Part shown: positions 56,301-60,547 of the stretch, piece after piece | Layout of the letters: the number at the start of each line of letters is the position of its first letter | How positions within the stretch are numbered: the first letter of the stretch is position 1 | Source of the DNA: a phage | Length of the DNA stretch: 64,000 bases | Strand: one strand, 5' to 3' | NCBI GenBank assembly: GCA_026209155.1 | Contig: GCA_026209155.1_3056.1 | Program-made: the position numbers and the translations under genes | Notes under the pieces: model-generated | Databases searched by the model: none | What the model was told of the DNA's origin: nothing | The model's input: only the letters and a program-made list of their open reading frames with translations

Positions 56301-56513
56301 TCATTTTTGTCCTGTATTTACTTTATGCCGATGCACGGCCTTAACTTTATCAAGGTATTTTTCAAAATTTCGCAATCTAGTATAGTCTGCCGGAGATTGG
56401 TTGAGTGATACTTCTCGACGCAAAGCTGAAATAACATTTCCAACTTCCCTACGAATTTCATCTAATTGAAGCACAGTAAGATTGCGAAGTTGCTTTTCAG
56501 TTAATTGTAGCAT
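56301..56513 (-). CDS. hypothetical small protein (rI.1 position)
   Basis: 70-aa ORF. Confidence 0.4.
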
Positions 56514-56555
56514 ATATACCCCTTTAGTTAGATAAACCTATTTATAACTTTTGCA

Positions 56556-57137
56556 CTAACCGAGCTTTTTAGTTAATTCATTCCAATGTTTTCTACACAA
56601 AGAAACATAAATTTCATCACCAATACAGATTTGATTACCTTCTTTAACTGGTGTTCCATCTTCCATTAATCGAGCTGTCATAATCGCTTTTTTACCGCAA
56701 TGACAAACTGCTTTTAGTTCAATAAGTTTATCTGCAATCGCTAAAAGTTCTTTAGAACCTTCAAACAATTTTCCAGCGAAATCAGTCCTTAATCCATAAG
56801 CCATAACAGGAACATTATATGTATCAACAATTCGGCTCAATTGATGCACTTGTTCAGTTTTTAAAAACTGAGCTTCATCTACAAATACACAATGAATATC
56901 TTTTTGTGCTTCAGCCCATTTATAGAACTCGAAAATATCCATATCATCTGTAATAATATTCGCTTCCTGCTTAATTCCAATGCGAGAAACAACTTCACAG
57001 ACAGAATCGCGAGTATCAATAGCAGGCTTAAGAACTAATACACTCATTCCACGTTCTTTATAATTATGTGCAGCAGTCAAAAGAGAAGCAGATTTTCCAG
57101 CATTCATTGCTGCATAAGTAAAAATTAAACTCGCCAT
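56556..57137 (-). CDS. tk: thymidine kinase
   Basis: 193-aa ORF; P-loop AAMNAGKS, zinc ribbon CHCGKKA...C; same length as T4 Tk. Confidence 0.9.
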   Translation of the reverse strand: MASLIFTYAAMNAGKSASLLTAAHNYKERGMSVLVLKPAIDTRDSVCEVVSRIGIKQEANIITDDMDIFEFYKWAEAQKDIHCVFVDEAQFLKTEQVHQLSRIVDTYNVPVMAYGLRTDFAGKLFEGSKELLAIADKLIELKAVCHCGKKAIMTARLMEDGTPVKEGNQICIGDEIYVSLCRKHWNELTKKLG

Positions 57138-57146
57138 ATCACCTTC

Positions 57147-57332
57147 TTAAAGCGTATTCACATAAGCTATTAATTCATTTTCTTTCTTATCAAACCGATC
57201 AGCAAATTCTTCCTGCTGTTCAGGAGATAGCGGGCCGTATTCATCATAAAAGGTGTTTGCTTCTGTATGCTCATCTAGAAGTTCATGGATAAGCTCAAAC
57301 AATTTATCTTTTTGTTCTTTGCTTAAACTCAT
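57147..57332 (-). CDS. hypothetical small acidic protein
   Basis: 61-aa ORF. Confidence 0.4.
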   Translation of the reverse strand: MSLSKEQKDKLFELIHELLDEHTEANTFYDEYGPLSPEQQEEFADRFDKKENELIAYVNTL

Positions 57333-57502
57333 ATATTAATTTCCAAAAGTTTTAAAATAATTCGTTTCTGATTCATAACCGCTACGATTGAATGACCGTT
57401 GGGGTCTTTTTGACCTGATCCAATTATAAATCCTTTTTGCGCAGAAAGTTTAATCAAAACATCAAGTTCACGTAATAATTGATATTTTAAATCATCATTC
57501 AT
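57329..57502 (-). CDS. hypothetical mini-protein (57 aa)
   Basis: Not in ORF track; ATGA overlaps at both ends. Confidence 0.3.
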   Translation of the reverse strand: MNDDLKYQLLRELDVLIKLSAQKGFIIGSGQKDPNGHSIVAVMNQKRIILKLLEINI

Positions 57503-57726
57503 TTTGGTTTACCTTCTTTAACGAAATCAGGATAAGGATAAAATCCTGAATAAAATCCTTCACCTTTATGATTAATGCATCCTTTATTAGAGCAATAGCA
57601 CCAATAATCGAAATCACAAGCCATTTCATCATTGCATAAAGCAAAAACAACTGGCCATTTACACTTTTCACAATGTGCATTTTTAAGAATGCTAATTTGG
57701 CTCATAACCATGTAACCTTTAAGCAA
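57499..57726 (-). CDS. Cys-rich small protein (probable zinc binding)
   Basis: 75-aa ORF with multiple Cys and His (HCEKCKW...CNDEMACDFDYWCYCSNKGCINH). Confidence 0.4.
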   Translation of the reverse strand: MLKGYMVMSQISILKNAHCEKCKWPVVFALCNDEMACDFDYWCYCSNKGCINHKGEGFYSGFYPYPDFVKEGKPK

Positions 57727-57929
57727 TATTCTTCTACATGCTGTTTACGACCTTTCTTATCAATAAAGGTATATTCAACGAATGTTCCAATATAGTCTTT
57801 ATCTACATCATGTGGACTATTAATTGGGCATTTAGTACGGCAAATGCGTTCCCATTGACGAATAATTACTGCTTTGGTTTTAGGATCAAACGGATGTGGA
57901 TAATGTATATTCATAATAACGGTTCCCAA
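57702..57929 (-). CDS. hypothetical small protein
   Basis: 75-aa ORF. Confidence 0.4.
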   Translation of the reverse strand: MGTVIMNIHYPHPFDPKTKAVIIRQWERICRTKCPINSPHDVDKDYIGTFVEYTFIDKKGRKQHVEEYCLKVTWL

Positions 57930-58378
57930 TCAACAATCACAATTTCTAGTTTAGTAGAATACGTATCTAAAATCCCCTCAATAATATCCCAGTTCCCTTT
58001 ACCTATGCCTGCACCAATCCTAGGCATATAGATTGTAGGTTTAATCAGTTTATTTTCACCAAACTCATTTAATTCTAACATACAATTCATTAAAGCGGAA
58101 TACTCAAAATTTGGCCCTGGTTGAAATTGAGTATAAAGATTGAAGCAGTAAGCTTTATGAGTCCTAAAGTATTTTTCATAGACTGAATAAGAACCAAGTT
58201 TAGTTACATCACCCCATTCAGTCTGTAATTTATCAGCTTCCAAAATTTTAGGGAAAGCTTTGGTTAATTGACCTGCGACTCCAGCTTTCATCGCGTGAAA
58301 ACAATTACATCCATGCGCAATATTTTTACCTTCAGCGAAAAGGGCGACAATATCGCCCTTGATATATTTTACAATCAT
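57911..58378 (-). CDS. macro-domain-like protein (putative ADP-ribose binding or processing)
   Basis: 155-aa ORF; GDIVALFAEGKNIAHGCNCFHAMKAGVAGQL and PRIGAGIGKGNWD resemble macro-domain motifs; assignment from motif pattern only. Confidence 0.4.
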   Translation of the reverse strand: MIVKYIKGDIVALFAEGKNIAHGCNCFHAMKAGVAGQLTKAFPKILEADKLQTEWGDVTKLGSYSVYEKYFRTHKAYCFNLYTQFQPGPNFEYSALMNCMLELNEFGENKLIKPTIYMPRIGAGIGKGNWDIIEGILDTYSTKLEIVIVDWEPLL

Positions 58379-58722
58379 CTAGTACTCAATCCTCGATTAT
58401 AAGAATCTACCAAACGGTCAACCATTGAATGACAAGCGGCTTTATCTTTCTCCTCCGCAACTGAACATTCTAAGGTATTCCACTTTTTAGCATATCGTTT
58501 TAATAATGTATCGTTTTTGTATCTACTTGATTTATCTCTTTCTCCGTCTTTATATGCATATATTAATTTCTGTGCAAATTCAGCTTGACATGCTTTATTT
58601 TTCCCACAATAATCTGCCGCAGTGCGGTTTACATATTCTCTAATTTCAGTATATGATGTATCTGCTAACGCAGAAGCAGAAAATGAAATTAATCCTATAC
58701 ATAAAACCAAAATTTTAGTCAT
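58375..58722 (-). CDS. secreted protein (vs position)
   Basis: 115-aa ORF with signal peptide MTKILVLCIGLISFSASALA. Confidence 0.45.
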   Translation of the reverse strand: MTKILVLCIGLISFSASALADTSYTEIREYVNRTAADYCGKNKACQAEFAQKLIYAYKDGERDKSSRYKNDTLLKRYAKKWNTLECSVAEEKDKAACHSMVDRLVDSYNRGLSTR

Positions 58723-59260
58723 TTACTATTTCCAAAAGTTTATTATTTTTAAGGTAATTAGCCTTTTCTAGGACTTCAGAAGCATATTTAGAACCTGCTT
58801 TAACATTCCATCCCGAATTATAAGAGGATATTGCTTTTCTTATATCGCCCTTATGTATATTTAACCAATAAGAAAGTTCAATGTACGCCCAGAAAGCTGA
58901 ATTGGATCGTTTATTCAACATTCTTTTTATTTCAGCATCGGTCATATTATAACCAAGTTCCTTAACTCTTGCTCGCATAGTAGGCAAATAATTTTGGAAC
59001 ATTCCGTAGGCGTGATGCTTTGGTTTAGATTTTAAATTAACTCCGCCAGAGCTTTCTTGCCATAAAATGGCTGCCATTATATGACCTAATCCGCTCTTGT
59101 GGATATTTTTGTGTGTTTTATATTTTCCATCCTTAGAAAATTGTTCCCCGAATTGATACGCGTAACGCATGTTATCGAGTTGGACATTACTGAAAGTATG
59201 CTCGGAGCTATGTGCCATCATTGAAATGGCCAATAGACCAGCGAGTAGTGCTTTTCTCAT
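58715..59260 (-). CDS. lytic transglycosylase-like protein, exported
   Basis: 181-aa ORF with signal peptide and AAILWQESSGG motif typical of the SLT catalytic site. Confidence 0.5.
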   Translation of the reverse strand: MRKALLAGLLAISMMAHSSEHTFSNVQLDNMRYAYQFGEQFSKDGKYKTHKNIHKSGLGHIMAAILWQESSGGVNLKSKPKHHAYGMFQNYLPTMRARVKELGYNMTDAEIKRMLNKRSNSAFWAYIELSYWLNIHKGDIRKAISSYNSGWNVKAGSKYASEVLEKANYLKNNKLLEIVND

Positions 59261-59267
59261 GCTTACC

Positions 59268-59729
59268 TCATTGAGTTTTAATTACTGCTTTAGAAGCCTT
59301 TCCTGGTAAACGACGACTGTTGATAATTGCCATCCTGCATTGAAGCGACGGGTCTTTGAACTTCGCGTTAGGTTTACAAACTGTAAATCCAAGCCAAAGA
59401 TTTCCATCTGTGATTTCTAAACGTCCAGGACGATATTCAACCCCATCAATAAAATCCTCGTCAATGTCAGGACGCGGAGGCATACTCAGGAATTCATTAA
59501 CTTCTAAAACATGGTCTTTTATTTTATGGAATAATTCAAAAACATATGTCTCGTCAATCTCCCGTTGAATTGCACGATCAAGAAGATGCTGAGAATATTT
59601 TAGATGAAACGATGAGACCCCTGCTGCTTTTGATGCCTCACGAATCTCATTGTTAATTTGACGAAACTCCGACTCAAAGTGACGACGAAGCTTATTTCGA
59701 CGGATAAAAACTTCTGTATTGATAGTCAT
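59268..59729 (-). CDS. regB: RegB endoribonuclease
   Basis: 153-aa ORF MTINTEVFIRRNKLRRHFESEFRQINNEIREASK...; matches T4 RegB. Confidence 0.85.
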   Translation of the reverse strand: MTINTEVFIRRNKLRRHFESEFRQINNEIREASKAAGVSSFHLKYSQHLLDRAIQREIDETYVFELFHKIKDHVLEVNEFLSMPPRPDIDEDFIDGVEYRPGRLEITDGNLWLGFTVCKPNAKFKDPSLQCRMAIINSRRLPGKASKAVIKTQ

Positions 59730-59754
59730 GTTATTCTCCTCTTAACTGATAGAA

Positions 59755-59788
59755 AAATTATACCACAGTCAAGAGGAAAAGTAAACAG
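59755..59788 (-). promoter_or_regulatory. T4-type early promoter upstream of regB
   Basis: Plus attata 59757-59762 and gtaaac 59781-59786. Confidence 0.55.
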
Positions 59789-60109
59789 TTATTCTTTAAA
59801 TCTAATCAATTTATTCATAGACTTTGAAACTTCTGCACGAACCTCATGTAGATTTTTGAGCTGTTCAAGACGCTGCTCATAGTAAGCAATTTCATCTTCT
59901 TCGAGACAGTCCTGTGAATCTTCTTTAAGATAACGTGCATAGTCCTGGAAAGCGTTACGAACTACTTCCTGGAAGTCATCAAGACTTTGAATTTTCTTAG
60001 GAGCAACAGATACACGACGAGGGGCAGTATAATACTCATAACCAAACCCTGCGCTTAATTGAGCCATTAGTATTTTTCCTCTGGTTGGAACACTGCACGA
60101 CAAGCCCAC
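59789..60109 (-). CDS. hypothetical protein (vs.3 position)
   Basis: 106-aa ORF. Confidence 0.4.
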
Positions 60110-60369
60110 ATACTGGCTTCTTTGAGTTTCGTTTTAGCAATAGTTAACTGATCGAGGCTTTCGGCGTAATTCTTCGCGAGTTCATCATCTTCACAGCTAT
60201 CAAATGCTTCCCAAAATTCATCGTATAAAGCATCAAAGATAAGTCCTAAACGAACTTCAGCGTCTTTAATAGCATTTACTTTACCGATTTTTTCGTCGGT
60301 ATGTGGCTTATAACCTTTAATATCTTCAATCATATTTGACTTCCTCACCAGTACATAAATCGTATTCAA
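60067..60369 (-). CDS. hypothetical protein (vs.4 position)
   Basis: 100-aa ORF; start may be internal. Confidence 0.4.
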
Positions 60370-60547
60370 CTAAACGAATAGGTTCATGAATGCCATATCC
60401 TTGAACAGAAATTTCTGTAGTAGGATAAATTCCATTAATATCACCCATGTTCCATGCTTCGTTAAATTGCTGTTCGCCTGAATTACTAAACCATTCGGCG
60501 AAAGCATTTAGCACATCTTTAGAACCTTCAATAATTATCTTTGCCAT
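60326..60547 (-). CDS. hypothetical small protein (vs.5 position)
   Basis: 73-aa ORF. Confidence 0.4.
   Translation of the reverse strand: MAKIIIEGSKDVLNAFAEWFSNSGEQQFNEAWNMGDINGIYPTTEISVQGYGIHEPIRLVEYDLCTGEEVKYD

What the first reader, a model, noticed from the sequence alone, without database searches (positions are those of the whole stretch)
57911..58378. Macro-domain-like ORF downstream of tk
The 155-aa product has GDIV...AIAHGCNC...AGVAGQL and IGAGIGKGNW segments resembling the ligand-binding loops of macro domains. If real, a phage macro domain could reverse ADP-ribosylation or degrade ADP-ribose-derived signalling molecules. The call rests on motif resemblance only.
Basis: inference. 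Interest (0 to 1): 0.45.

Follow-up and report, generated by a model that had tools for sequence, protein, structure and literature searches.

The report
T4 tk.4/adfM anti-DarT2 macrodomain gene
This ORF is the T4-like phage gene tk.4 (recently named adfM), a stand-alone macrodomain enzyme that most likely strips host-added ADP-ribose off phage DNA to defeat the DarTG2 defence system; it is real but already described.

Summary
The ORF is real: 57911..58378 on the − strand, 155 aa. The window is a Tequatrovirus (T4-like phage). This gene is tk.4, lying between vs and tk.3, and its product is 151/155 identical to T4 Tk.4.

The macro-domain reading is supported:
- Pfam Macro scores just above the gathering cut-off.
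- The AlphaFold model is confident (pLDDT 94).

The function is already published. A 2025 preprint showed that T4 tk.4 becomes conditionally essential on DarTG2-expressing hosts and named it adfM.

What I add:
- The protein has an invariant Gln84 where DarG and TARG1 have their catalytic Lys. That makes it an SCO6735/BT1257-type macrodomain. SCO6735 is a proven ADPr-thymidine DNA hydrolase whose Gln is essential.
- The biochemically tested PhiKZ "AdfM" is the Lys type, so the two AdfMs differ in kind.
- Three of the four differences from T4 lie in the first substrate loop (T29A, G31K, S32A).
- tk.4 is a sharply bounded divergent cassette among otherwise near-identical Tequatrovirus genomes.

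Verdict: correct call, ordinary and already known, low interest.

The parts
57911..58378 (-). tk.4 / adfM coding sequence, 155 aa stand-alone macrodomain
   Evidence: ORF list. 151/155 identical to T4 NP_049723 Tk.4. Pfam Macro. AF2 model plus fold searches.
58274..58315 (-). Codons 22-35, first substrate-binding loop H22-G-C-N25-C-F-H-A29-M-K31-A32-G33-V-A35. It holds three of the four differences from T4 (T29A, G31K, S32A).
   Evidence: Family conservation: H22 106/109, G23 108/109, N25 108/109, G33 and A35 109/109. It aligns with SCO6735 H24-V25-C-N27…K34-G35. N25 aligns with PhiKZ AdfM N23, whose N23A mutant has reduced activity.
58127..58141 (-). Codons 80-84, N-L-Y-T-Q. Gln84 occupies the position of the catalytic Lys of TARG1 (K84) and DarG (K80).
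   Evidence: Q84 is invariant in 109/109 homologs. Profile alignment to TARG1 'LITK' and to SCO6735/BT1257 'NMIGQ'. SCO6735 Q85A/E mutants are inactive (PMC9411070).
57989..58024 (-). Codons 119-130, second (diphosphate-binding) loop P-R-I-G-A-G-I-G126-K-G-N-W. G126 sits where TARG1 has catalytic Asp125.
   Evidence: P119, G122 and G124 are invariant or nearly so. Alignment to TARG1 PRIGCGLDRLQW.
58390..58394 (-). GAGGA ribosome-binding site 11 nt upstream of the tk.4 ATG, inside the end of vs
   Evidence: Read directly from the sequence.
58375..58378 (-). ATGA overlap of the vs stop and the tk.4 start. The same kind of overlap joins the tk.4 stop and tk.3 start at 57911-57914.
   Evidence: Sequence. 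Same arrangement in the T4 annotation.
59757..59786 (-). T4 early-type promoter GTTTAC-N17-TGgTATAAT upstream of regB. It is the likely source of the regB-vs.1-vs-tk.4 early transcript (inference).
   Evidence: Consensus scan hit with 10/12 matches plus TG. Sequence read. All three terminator-like sites in 56400-60400 are on the + strand, so none lies on the − strand between this promoter and tk.4. The overall number of promoter-like hits in the region is not above the shuffled expectation.

Best explanation
The ORF is the ortholog of phage T4 tk.4, recently renamed adfM (anti-DarT factor Macrodomain). It encodes a 155-aa single-domain macrodomain of the ALC1-like (TARG1/DarG/SCO6735) class. 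It is probably made early in infection, from the early promoter upstream of regB.

Proposed mechanism:
- The host DarT2 toxin ADP-ribosylates thymidines in TNTC motifs of single-stranded phage DNA and so blocks replication.
- The phage macrodomain binds the ADP-ribose between its two conserved loops (H22-G-C-N25…G33-V-A35 and P119-R-I-G-A-G-I-G-K-G-N-W).
- It hydrolyses the ribose-N3-thymine bond, releasing ADP-ribose and restoring the DNA.
- It lacks the Lys (and Asp) used by DarG and TARG1 and has an invariant Gln84. The chemistry is therefore expected to follow SCO6735, where the Gln positions the distal ribose or transition state and a backbone-held water initiates cleavage.

What is shown and what is inferred:
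- Shown here: the fold, the class, the residue mapping and the orthology.
- Shown in the literature for the T4 ortholog: the genetic anti-DarTG2 phenotype.
- Shown only for the remote relatives SCO6735 and PhiKZ gp104: the hydrolase chemistry.
- Inferred for this protein: the hydrolase chemistry, and early expression.
For: Orthology:
- 97% identity to T4 Tk.4, with the same neighbours vs and tk.3.
- The surrounding 3.3 kb is 98% identical to Tequatrovirus genomes.

Fold:
- Pfam Macro is above its cut-off.
- AF2 gives pLDDT 94.1 and pTM 0.89.
- Profile versus PDB sequences: BT1257 5e-22, SCO6735 7e-18, TARG1 1e-16, DarG 1e-12 to 1e-14.

Active site:
- Q84 aligns with SCO6735 Q85 and TARG1 K84. 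N25 and H22 align with SCO6735 N27 and H24.
- Q84 is invariant in 109/109 homologs and N25 in 108/109.

Function from the literature:
- In a T4 transposon screen, tk.4 was the single significant hit on a DarTG2 host, and a clean knockout became DarTG2-sensitive (10.1101/2025.11.20.689424).
- T4 lacking adfA and adfN stays resistant to DarTG2, so another factor was expected (PMC11825919).
- SCO6735, also Gln-type, hydrolyses ADPr-dT DNA and rescues DarT toxicity (PMC9411070).
- PhiKZ gp104 macrodomain removes DarT2-made ADPr from DNA in vitro (PMC13309987).

Other support:
- DarG models are the only NCBIfam and PADLOC hits.
- tk.4 is a sharply bounded divergent cassette (48-68% nt identity inside 97-100% identical flanks versus PP01), as expected for a gene in an arms race.
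Against: - No biochemical assay exists for any Tk.4-family protein in the papers I could read. The T4 evidence is genetic and comes from a preprint.
- This allele differs from T4 at three positions in the first substrate loop (T29A, G31K, S32A), so equal activity is assumed, not shown.
- Compared with SCO6735, the family lacks the longer 'mobile loop' with its lysines (5-6 residues shorter) and the DNA-positioning K34. The SCO6735 mechanism may therefore not transfer in detail.
- The SCO6735 mechanism itself rests partly on molecular-dynamics simulation.
- Early expression is inferred from a consensus promoter only.
Confidence: 0.75

Rival explanations
1. It neutralises DarT2 mainly by binding the toxin or its DNA substrate (interaction-inhibition or sequestration) rather than by catalytic removal of ADP-ribose.
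For: Catalytically dead SCO6735 Q85A, DarG K80A and TARG1 K84A all inhibit DarT in vitro, and SCO6735 does so most strongly (PMC9411070). The known small anti-DarT factors AdfA and AdfB appear to act by binding the toxin (PMC11825919). The T4 knockout phenotype does not separate the two modes.
Against: Residues needed only for ADPr binding or catalysis are invariant across 109 homologs from very different phages (N25, Q84, both glycine loops). That fits an enzyme acting on a universal product better than a binder of variable toxins. The protein lacks the C-terminal DarT-binding domain of DarG: it matches only positions 2-144 of the 338-position DarG model.
Confidence: 0.1
2. It is an ADP-ribose-1''-phosphate phosphatase (Poa1p-like), clearing by-products of RNA repair or tRNA metabolism. 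This is what the legacy annotation 'phosphatase, A1pp motif' implies.
Against: The 'phosphatase' label is inherited from the old Appr-1-p family name, not from an assay. This role does not explain the specific DarTG2-dependent essentiality of T4 tk.4. Sequence scores are higher to BT1257/SCO6735 than to Poa1p. Gene adjacency in mosaic early regions of T4-like phages is weak evidence.
Confidence: 0.06
3. It reverses protein (Glu/Asp-linked) or RNA ADP-ribosylation, either made by host defence ARTs or made by the phage's own Alt/ModA/ModB enzymes.
For: TARG1 and SCO6735, its structural relatives, also de-modify proteins (PMC9411070). T4-like phages encode their own ARTs (general knowledge; mentioned in PMC9503650).
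Against: No genetic or biochemical link has been reported. To my knowledge the Alt/Mod enzymes mainly modify arginine, which macrodomains are not known to reverse. The one phenotype on record is DarTG2-specific.
Confidence: 0.06
4. It degrades or sponges ADPr-derived immune signals (Thoeris gcADPR/His-ADPR or similar), as the first reader suggested as an alternative.
Confidence: 0.03

Closest known systems
Phage T4 Tk.4 = AdfM (NP_049723; bioRxiv 10.1101/2025.11.20.689424)
   Same: Ortholog: 151/155 identical, same length, same position between vs and tk.3, same start/stop overlaps. It is reported to be required for T4 growth on DarTG2 hosts.
   Different: Four substitutions: T29A, G31K and S32A in the first substrate loop, and S142T. 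K31 is a minority state in the family (8/109, against G in 85/109).
Streptomyces coelicolor SCO6735 (PDB 5E3B) and Bacteroides BT1257 (2FG1/2AFC)
   Same: Best sequence and structure matches. Same N-x-x-x-Q motif, with Gln replacing the catalytic Lys. Same H-x-C-N start of loop 1 and the same G-x-G-[IL]-[AG]-G-G-x-W loop 2. SCO6735 hydrolyses ADPr-thymidine DNA and counteracts DarT.
   Different: Only 25-29% identity. The Tk.4 family lacks the 5-6-residue longer mobile loop with its lysines and has no Lys at the SCO6735 K34 position (A32 here, S32 in T4). SCO6735 and BT1257 are cellular proteins, not phage-borne.
DarG antitoxin macrodomain (T. aquaticus 5M31/5M3E, M. tuberculosis 5M3I, T. africanus 7OMU)
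   Different: DarG uses a catalytic Lys (K80) where Tk.4 has Gln84. DarG has a C-terminal DarT-binding domain and is encoded next to darT. Tk.4 has neither. NCBIfam score is 24.5 bits against a cut-off of 250.
PhiKZ gp104 'AdfM' (PMC13309987)
   Same: A stand-alone phage macrodomain that counters DarTG2. Its conserved Asn (N23) aligns with Tk.4 N25.
   Different: Only remotely related: BLASTP E 0.019 over 23 residues, and 37 bits against the profile. It carries the DarG-type F-P-T-K motif, so it is Lys-type. It is imported into the phage nucleus. The two proteins share a name but are different macrodomain subtypes.
Human TARG1/OARD1 (4J5R/4J5S)
   Same: Top Foldseek match (E 5.6e-10). It also removes thymidine-linked ADPr from DNA.
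   Different: The catalytic dyad K84/D125 is replaced by Q84/G126.
Yeast Poa1p (6LFQ-6LFU)
   Different: About 22% identity. It acts on the small molecule Appr-1''-p. No phosphatase assay of Tk.4 turned up in the annotations or papers I saw.

Membership tests
Macro domain superfamily (Pfam PF01661) | Profile score at or above the curated gathering threshold | tested here: met
   24.3 bits against a cut-off of 22, E 3.2e-5, covering profile positions 2-113 of 118. The margin is narrow, but the profile-versus-PDB search backs it up.
Macro domain superfamily (Pfam PF01661) | Three-layer alpha/beta/alpha macro fold | tested here: met
Macro domain superfamily (Pfam PF01661) | Two conserved glycine-rich ADP-ribose/diphosphate-binding loops | tested here: met
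   H22-G-C-N25…M-x-x-G33-[IV]-A35 and P119-x-I-G-x-G-[IL]-x-G-G-x-W are conserved across 109 homologs.
ALC1-like class, Lys-type hydrolases (TARG1, DarG) | Catalytic lysine (TARG1 K84 / DarG K80) | tested here: not met
   Gln84 occupies this column and is invariant in the family.
ALC1-like class, Lys-type hydrolases (TARG1, DarG) | TARG1 catalytic Asp125 | tested here: not met
   Gly126 here (Ala in 75/109 relatives) aligns with D125.
SCO6735/BT1257 subclass (Gln-type ALC1-like macrodomains) | Gln at the catalytic-Lys position, plus the conserved His and Asn of loop 1 | tested here: met
   Q84, H22 and N25 align with SCO6735 Q85, H24 and N27. Q85A/E mutants are inactive in SCO6735.
SCO6735/BT1257 subclass (Gln-type ALC1-like macrodomains) | Extended mobile loop after the Gln, carrying the DNA-clamping lysines K89 and K94 | tested here: not met
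   BT1257 and SCO6735 carry 5-6 extra residues at this point relative to the Tk.4 profile. The Tk.4 loop is QFQPGPN, with no Lys.
SCO6735/BT1257 subclass (Gln-type ALC1-like macrodomains) | DNA-positioning Lys34 in loop 1 | tested here: inconclusive
   The aligned residue is A32 (S32 in T4). This window's allele has a Lys one position earlier (K31). Whether K31 can substitute is unknown.
SCO6735/BT1257 subclass (Gln-type ALC1-like macrodomains) | Hydrolysis of thymidine-linked ADP-ribose on DNA | not testable with these tools
   Needs an in vitro assay on a DarT2-modified oligonucleotide.
DarG antitoxin (NCBIfam NF048014 equivalog) | Full-length score at or above cut-off, with the C-terminal DarT-binding domain | tested here: not met
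   24.5 bits against a cut-off of 250. Only model positions 2-144 of 338 are matched, and the protein is 155 aa.
DarG antitoxin (NCBIfam NF048014 equivalog) | Encoded next to a darT toxin gene | tested here: not met
   The neighbours are vs and tk.3. Three homologs labelled as bacterial MAG proteins, or with no phage label, turned out to lie on T4-like phage contigs with no DarT nearby.
AdfM of T-even phages (T4 tk.4) | Orthology to T4 tk.4 by sequence and synteny | tested here: met
   97% identity, and the same order regB-vs.1-vs-tk.4-tk.3.
AdfM of T-even phages (T4 tk.4) | Needed for growth on DarTG2-expressing hosts | not testable with these tools
   Reported for T4 only. Needs a knockout of this phage's allele.
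Poa1p-like Appr-1''-p phosphatases | Phosphatase activity on ADP-ribose-1''-phosphate | not testable with these tools

The most novel reading that the evidence does not exclude
The T-even AdfM family is a phage-specific, Gln-type branch of the ALC1-like macrodomains. It has a short mobile loop and may work by a mechanism, or on a substrate range, distinct from both DarG and PhiKZ AdfM. Its sharp allelic turnover may reflect retuning against different DarT2 variants or other nucleic-acid ADP-ribosyltransferases. That turnover takes two forms. One is cassettes of about 55% and 84% identity swapped into otherwise identical genomes. The other is loop-1 changes such as G31K, which in this phage places a Lys next to the SCO6735 K34 position.
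Probability: 0.2. Interest if true: 0.45.

Novelty: already known. Interest (0 to 1): 0.15.

Why it matters
It confirms that a motif-only reading of raw sequence correctly picked out a phage counter-defence gene. Biologically, T-even phages stack several anti-DarT factors: AdfA, the NADAR enzyme AdfN against DarTG1, and this macrodomain against DarTG2. The one point not already in the papers I read is the subtype. The T4-type AdfM is Gln-type (SCO6735-like), whereas the PhiKZ protein of the same name is Lys-type (DarG-like). That matters for anyone designing catalytic-dead controls: use Q84 or N25, not a lysine. It also argues against assuming that one name covers one mechanism.

Tried and rejected
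I re-ran it without that row.
- My first paper search and one later in-paper term search failed because a term was shorter than 3 characters.
- The sigma-70 and terminator scan of 56400-60400 gave no more promoter-like hits than shuffled sequence (12 against 16.1 ± 4.0). Only the regB-proximal site, which matches the T4 early consensus when read by eye, was kept, and it is marked as inference.
- A MotA-box search (WWTGCTTWA) found no − strand box between regB and tk.4. The nearest boxes, at 57637-57645 and 57719-57727, are downstream of tk.4.
- I looked for cellular homologs next to DarT to get guilt-by-association evidence. The three candidates checked (P0054 and P0076, labelled as MAG proteins, and P0061) all lie on T4-like phage contigs (Rnl1, Pnkp, Dda-like helicase, dCMP deaminase, rIIB), so the test gave nothing.
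- I rejected filing the protein as DarG, because of the score, the domain architecture and the catalytic Lys.
- I rejected the 'phosphatase' annotation as evidence of function, because it is an inherited family name.
- I searched for the Poa1p structure paper to map its H23/S30/F152 residues and did not find it in the library.
- I had no access to model coordinates, so I could not measure where K31 points.

Full report
**1. Observation**

The window carries an ATG…TGA ORF of 155 aa at exactly 57911..58378, on the − strand. The quoted motifs are there: KGDIVALF, NIAHGCNCFHAMKAGVAGQL and PRIGAGIGKGNW.

All genes in this region are on the − strand. tk.4 is therefore transcriptionally upstream of tk (56556..57137) and 'downstream' only in + coordinates.

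The tk.4 ATG overlaps the stop of the preceding gene (ATGA, 58375-58378). Its stop overlaps the start of the next gene (ATGA, 57911-57914). A GAGGA lies 11 nt upstream of the ATG.

The ORF is not a chance frame. tblastn finds it in 2,732 of 50,697 phage records, and 110 protein clusters match it in the metagenome-scale database.

**2. Identity of the locus**

The 3.3 kb around the ORF is 97.5-98.4% identical to Tequatrovirus genomes such as PTE-Eco15, AR1 and slur03. Against the T4 reference record, the gene order regB-vs.1-vs-tk.4-tk.3 is the same, and T4 annotates the gene as 'tk.4, phosphatase; contains A1pp phosphatase motif'.

The protein is 151/155 identical to T4 Tk.4. The differences are T29A, G31K, S32A and S142T. 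Several GenBank records already call it 'macro domain protein' or 'Poa1p_like family protein'.

Neighbours:
- vs (PHROG valyl-tRNA synthetase modifier).
- vs.1 (SLT transglycosylase domain).
- tk.3 (DUF7202).
- A phage zinc-binding domain ORF.
- Two small ORFs, one of unknown function and one DUF7438.

**3. Is it a macrodomain?**

Yes.
- Pfam Macro: E 3.2e-5, 24.3 bits against a gathering score of 22, so the margin is narrow.
- A profile of 46 family members hits PDB macrodomains strongly: BT1257 5e-22, SCO6735 7e-18, TARG1 1e-16, Poa1p 3e-15, DarG 1e-12 to 1e-14. Viral nsp3 Mac1 domains reach only about 1e-3.
- An AlphaFold2 model built from a 45-sequence alignment is confident: mean pLDDT 94.1, pTM 0.89.
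- Foldseek's best PDB hits are TARG1, Poa1p, BT1257 and DarG, all at probability 1.0.

**4. What is already known**

A bioRxiv preprint (10.1101/2025.11.20.689424) ran a T4 transposon library on a DarTG2-expressing host. It found tk.4 as the single significant hit, and a clean knockout sensitised T4 to DarTG2. The authors named the gene adfM and noted structural similarity to the M. tuberculosis DarG macrodomain. They inferred, but did not assay, removal of ADP-ribose from DNA.

Earlier work had shown that T4 lacking adfA and adfN is still resistant to DarTG2, so a further factor was predicted (PMC11825919).

Independently, the PhiKZ macrodomain gp104 was also named AdfM. It was shown in vitro to remove DarT2-made ADP-ribose from a TNTC oligonucleotide, with an N23A mutant impaired (PMC13309987).

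**5. Anatomy and likely mechanism**

Profile alignments place Tk.4 T83-Q84 opposite TARG1 T83-K84, and G126 opposite TARG1 D125. The catalytic Lys of DarG/TARG1 and the Asp of TARG1 are therefore absent.

The same columns in SCO6735 and BT1257 read N-M-I-G-Q and G-C-G-L-A-G-G-x-W, which is the Tk.4 pattern. In 109 homologs, Q84 is invariant, N25 is present in 108, H22 in 106, and G33 and A35 in all.

What is known about SCO6735 (PMC9411070):
- It efficiently hydrolyses thymidine-linked ADP-ribose on DNA.
- It rescues cells from DarT.
- It loses all activity as Q85A or Q85E.
- The authors propose that the Gln positions the distal ribose while a water held by the backbone of V25 starts the reaction.
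- K34 and K89 position the DNA.

Tk.4 G23 aligns with V25, which is compatible with a backbone role. Tk.4 has no Lys at the K34 column (A32 here, S32 in T4). Its loop after Q84 is 5-6 residues shorter and lacks lysines. I therefore file it as working like SCO6735, not as a full member of that subclass.

PhiKZ gp104, translated from the construct printed in the paper, has the DarG-type F-P-T-K motif. It is only remotely similar to Tk.4: BLASTP E 0.019 over 23 residues, and 37 bits against the profile. The two 'AdfM' proteins are different macrodomain subtypes that converge on the same opponent.

**6. This allele**

Three of the four differences from T4 fall in the first substrate loop. K31 is a minority state (8/109; Gly in 85/109) and lies next to the column of SCO6735 K34. 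Whether this changes DNA binding or specificity cannot be decided here, because I had no model coordinates and no assay.

**7. Expression context**

Upstream of regB lies GTTTAC-N17-TGgTATAAT (59786..59757, − strand), a good match to the T4 early-promoter consensus. All three terminator-like sites in the scanned region are on the + strand, so none lies on the − strand between this promoter and tk.4. The genes are also linked by ATGA overlaps. Early co-transcription with regB-vs.1-vs is thus plausible and fits a counter-defence role, but it is inferred. The scan as a whole is not enriched over shuffles.

**8. Population pattern**

Compared with phage PP01, the flanking proteins are 98-100% identical (tk.3 92.9%), but Tk.4 is only 54.7% identical. 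Nucleotide identity drops from 97-100% to 48-68% within the ORF boundaries.

A third allele class, about 84% identical, occurs in JK45-like phages. tk.4 is therefore an exchangeable cassette, a pattern common for anti-defence genes. All alleles keep N25 and Q84.

**9. Rivals**

- Toxin binding rather than hydrolysis. This is possible because dead SCO6735 inhibits DarT, but it fits poorly with invariant catalytic and ADPr-binding residues.
- Appr-1''-p phosphatase. This rests on an inherited label and fold similarity to Poa1p.
- Protein or RNA de-ADP-ribosylation.
- Degradation of Thoeris-type signals.

I found no direct evidence for either of the last two. The homologs I checked for genomic association with DarT all turned out to be on T4-like phage contigs, so that test was uninformative.

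**10. Verdict**

The gene is the known T4 tk.4/adfM, so the finding is already known and of low interest.

The residual points worth a specialist's attention are the Gln-type active site (in contrast with PhiKZ AdfM and DarG), the loop-1 substitutions, and the cassette-like allelic turnover.

Noticed in passing
window 57900-58330 compared with L002 (phage PP01): tk.4 is a sharply bounded divergent cassette. Nucleotide identity to PP01 falls from 97-100% in vs and tk.3 to 48-68% inside the ORF, and the protein is 54.7% identical. A third allele class, about 84% identical, exists in JK45-like phages.
   Followed up: partly
window 57140-57700 (− strand ORFs 57147..57332, 57329..57502, 57499..57726): The segment between tk.3 and tk does not match T4's tk.1/tk.2 region, apart from a 181-nt stretch at 70% identity, but it does match PP01. 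It holds three small ORFs: a 75-aa Cys-rich 'phage zinc binding domain' protein (PF23895), a 57-aa PHROG 3452 protein of unknown function, and a 61-aa DUF7438 protein.
   Followed up: partly
window 58375..58722 (−), vs: The valyl-tRNA synthetase modifier Vs begins with what looks by eye like a signal peptide (MTKILVLCIGLISFSASALA), which is odd for a protein said to modify a cytoplasmic synthetase. The HIDEN-SEQ preprint reports vs as the gene most depleted in minimal medium.
   Followed up: no
window 58715..59260 (−), vs.1: Vs.1 carries an SLT lytic-transglycosylase domain (Pfam 24.3 bits against a cut-off of 21.3) and what looks by eye like an N-terminal signal sequence. Most records annotate it as hypothetical, and one (JK45) mislabels it as RegB endoribonuclease.
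   Followed up: no
L004 1927-2397 and L005 5001-5480: Homologs labelled 'macro domain-containing protein' of a Bacilli bacterium MAG and a Culicoidibacterales MAG lie on T4-like phage contigs (Rnl1, Pnkp, Dda-like helicase, dCMP deaminase, spanin). These MAG bins appear to contain phage contigs. In L004 the macro gene sits two genes after RNA ligase 1.
   Followed up: partly
window 57637-57645 and 57719-57727 (− strand): Two MotA-box-like sequences (TTTGCTTTA, ATTGCTTAA) lie inside or just after tk.3. They could be middle promoters for the genes leading to tk. Matches to this pattern are about twice the shuffled expectation across the window (31 against 15.4).
   Followed up: no
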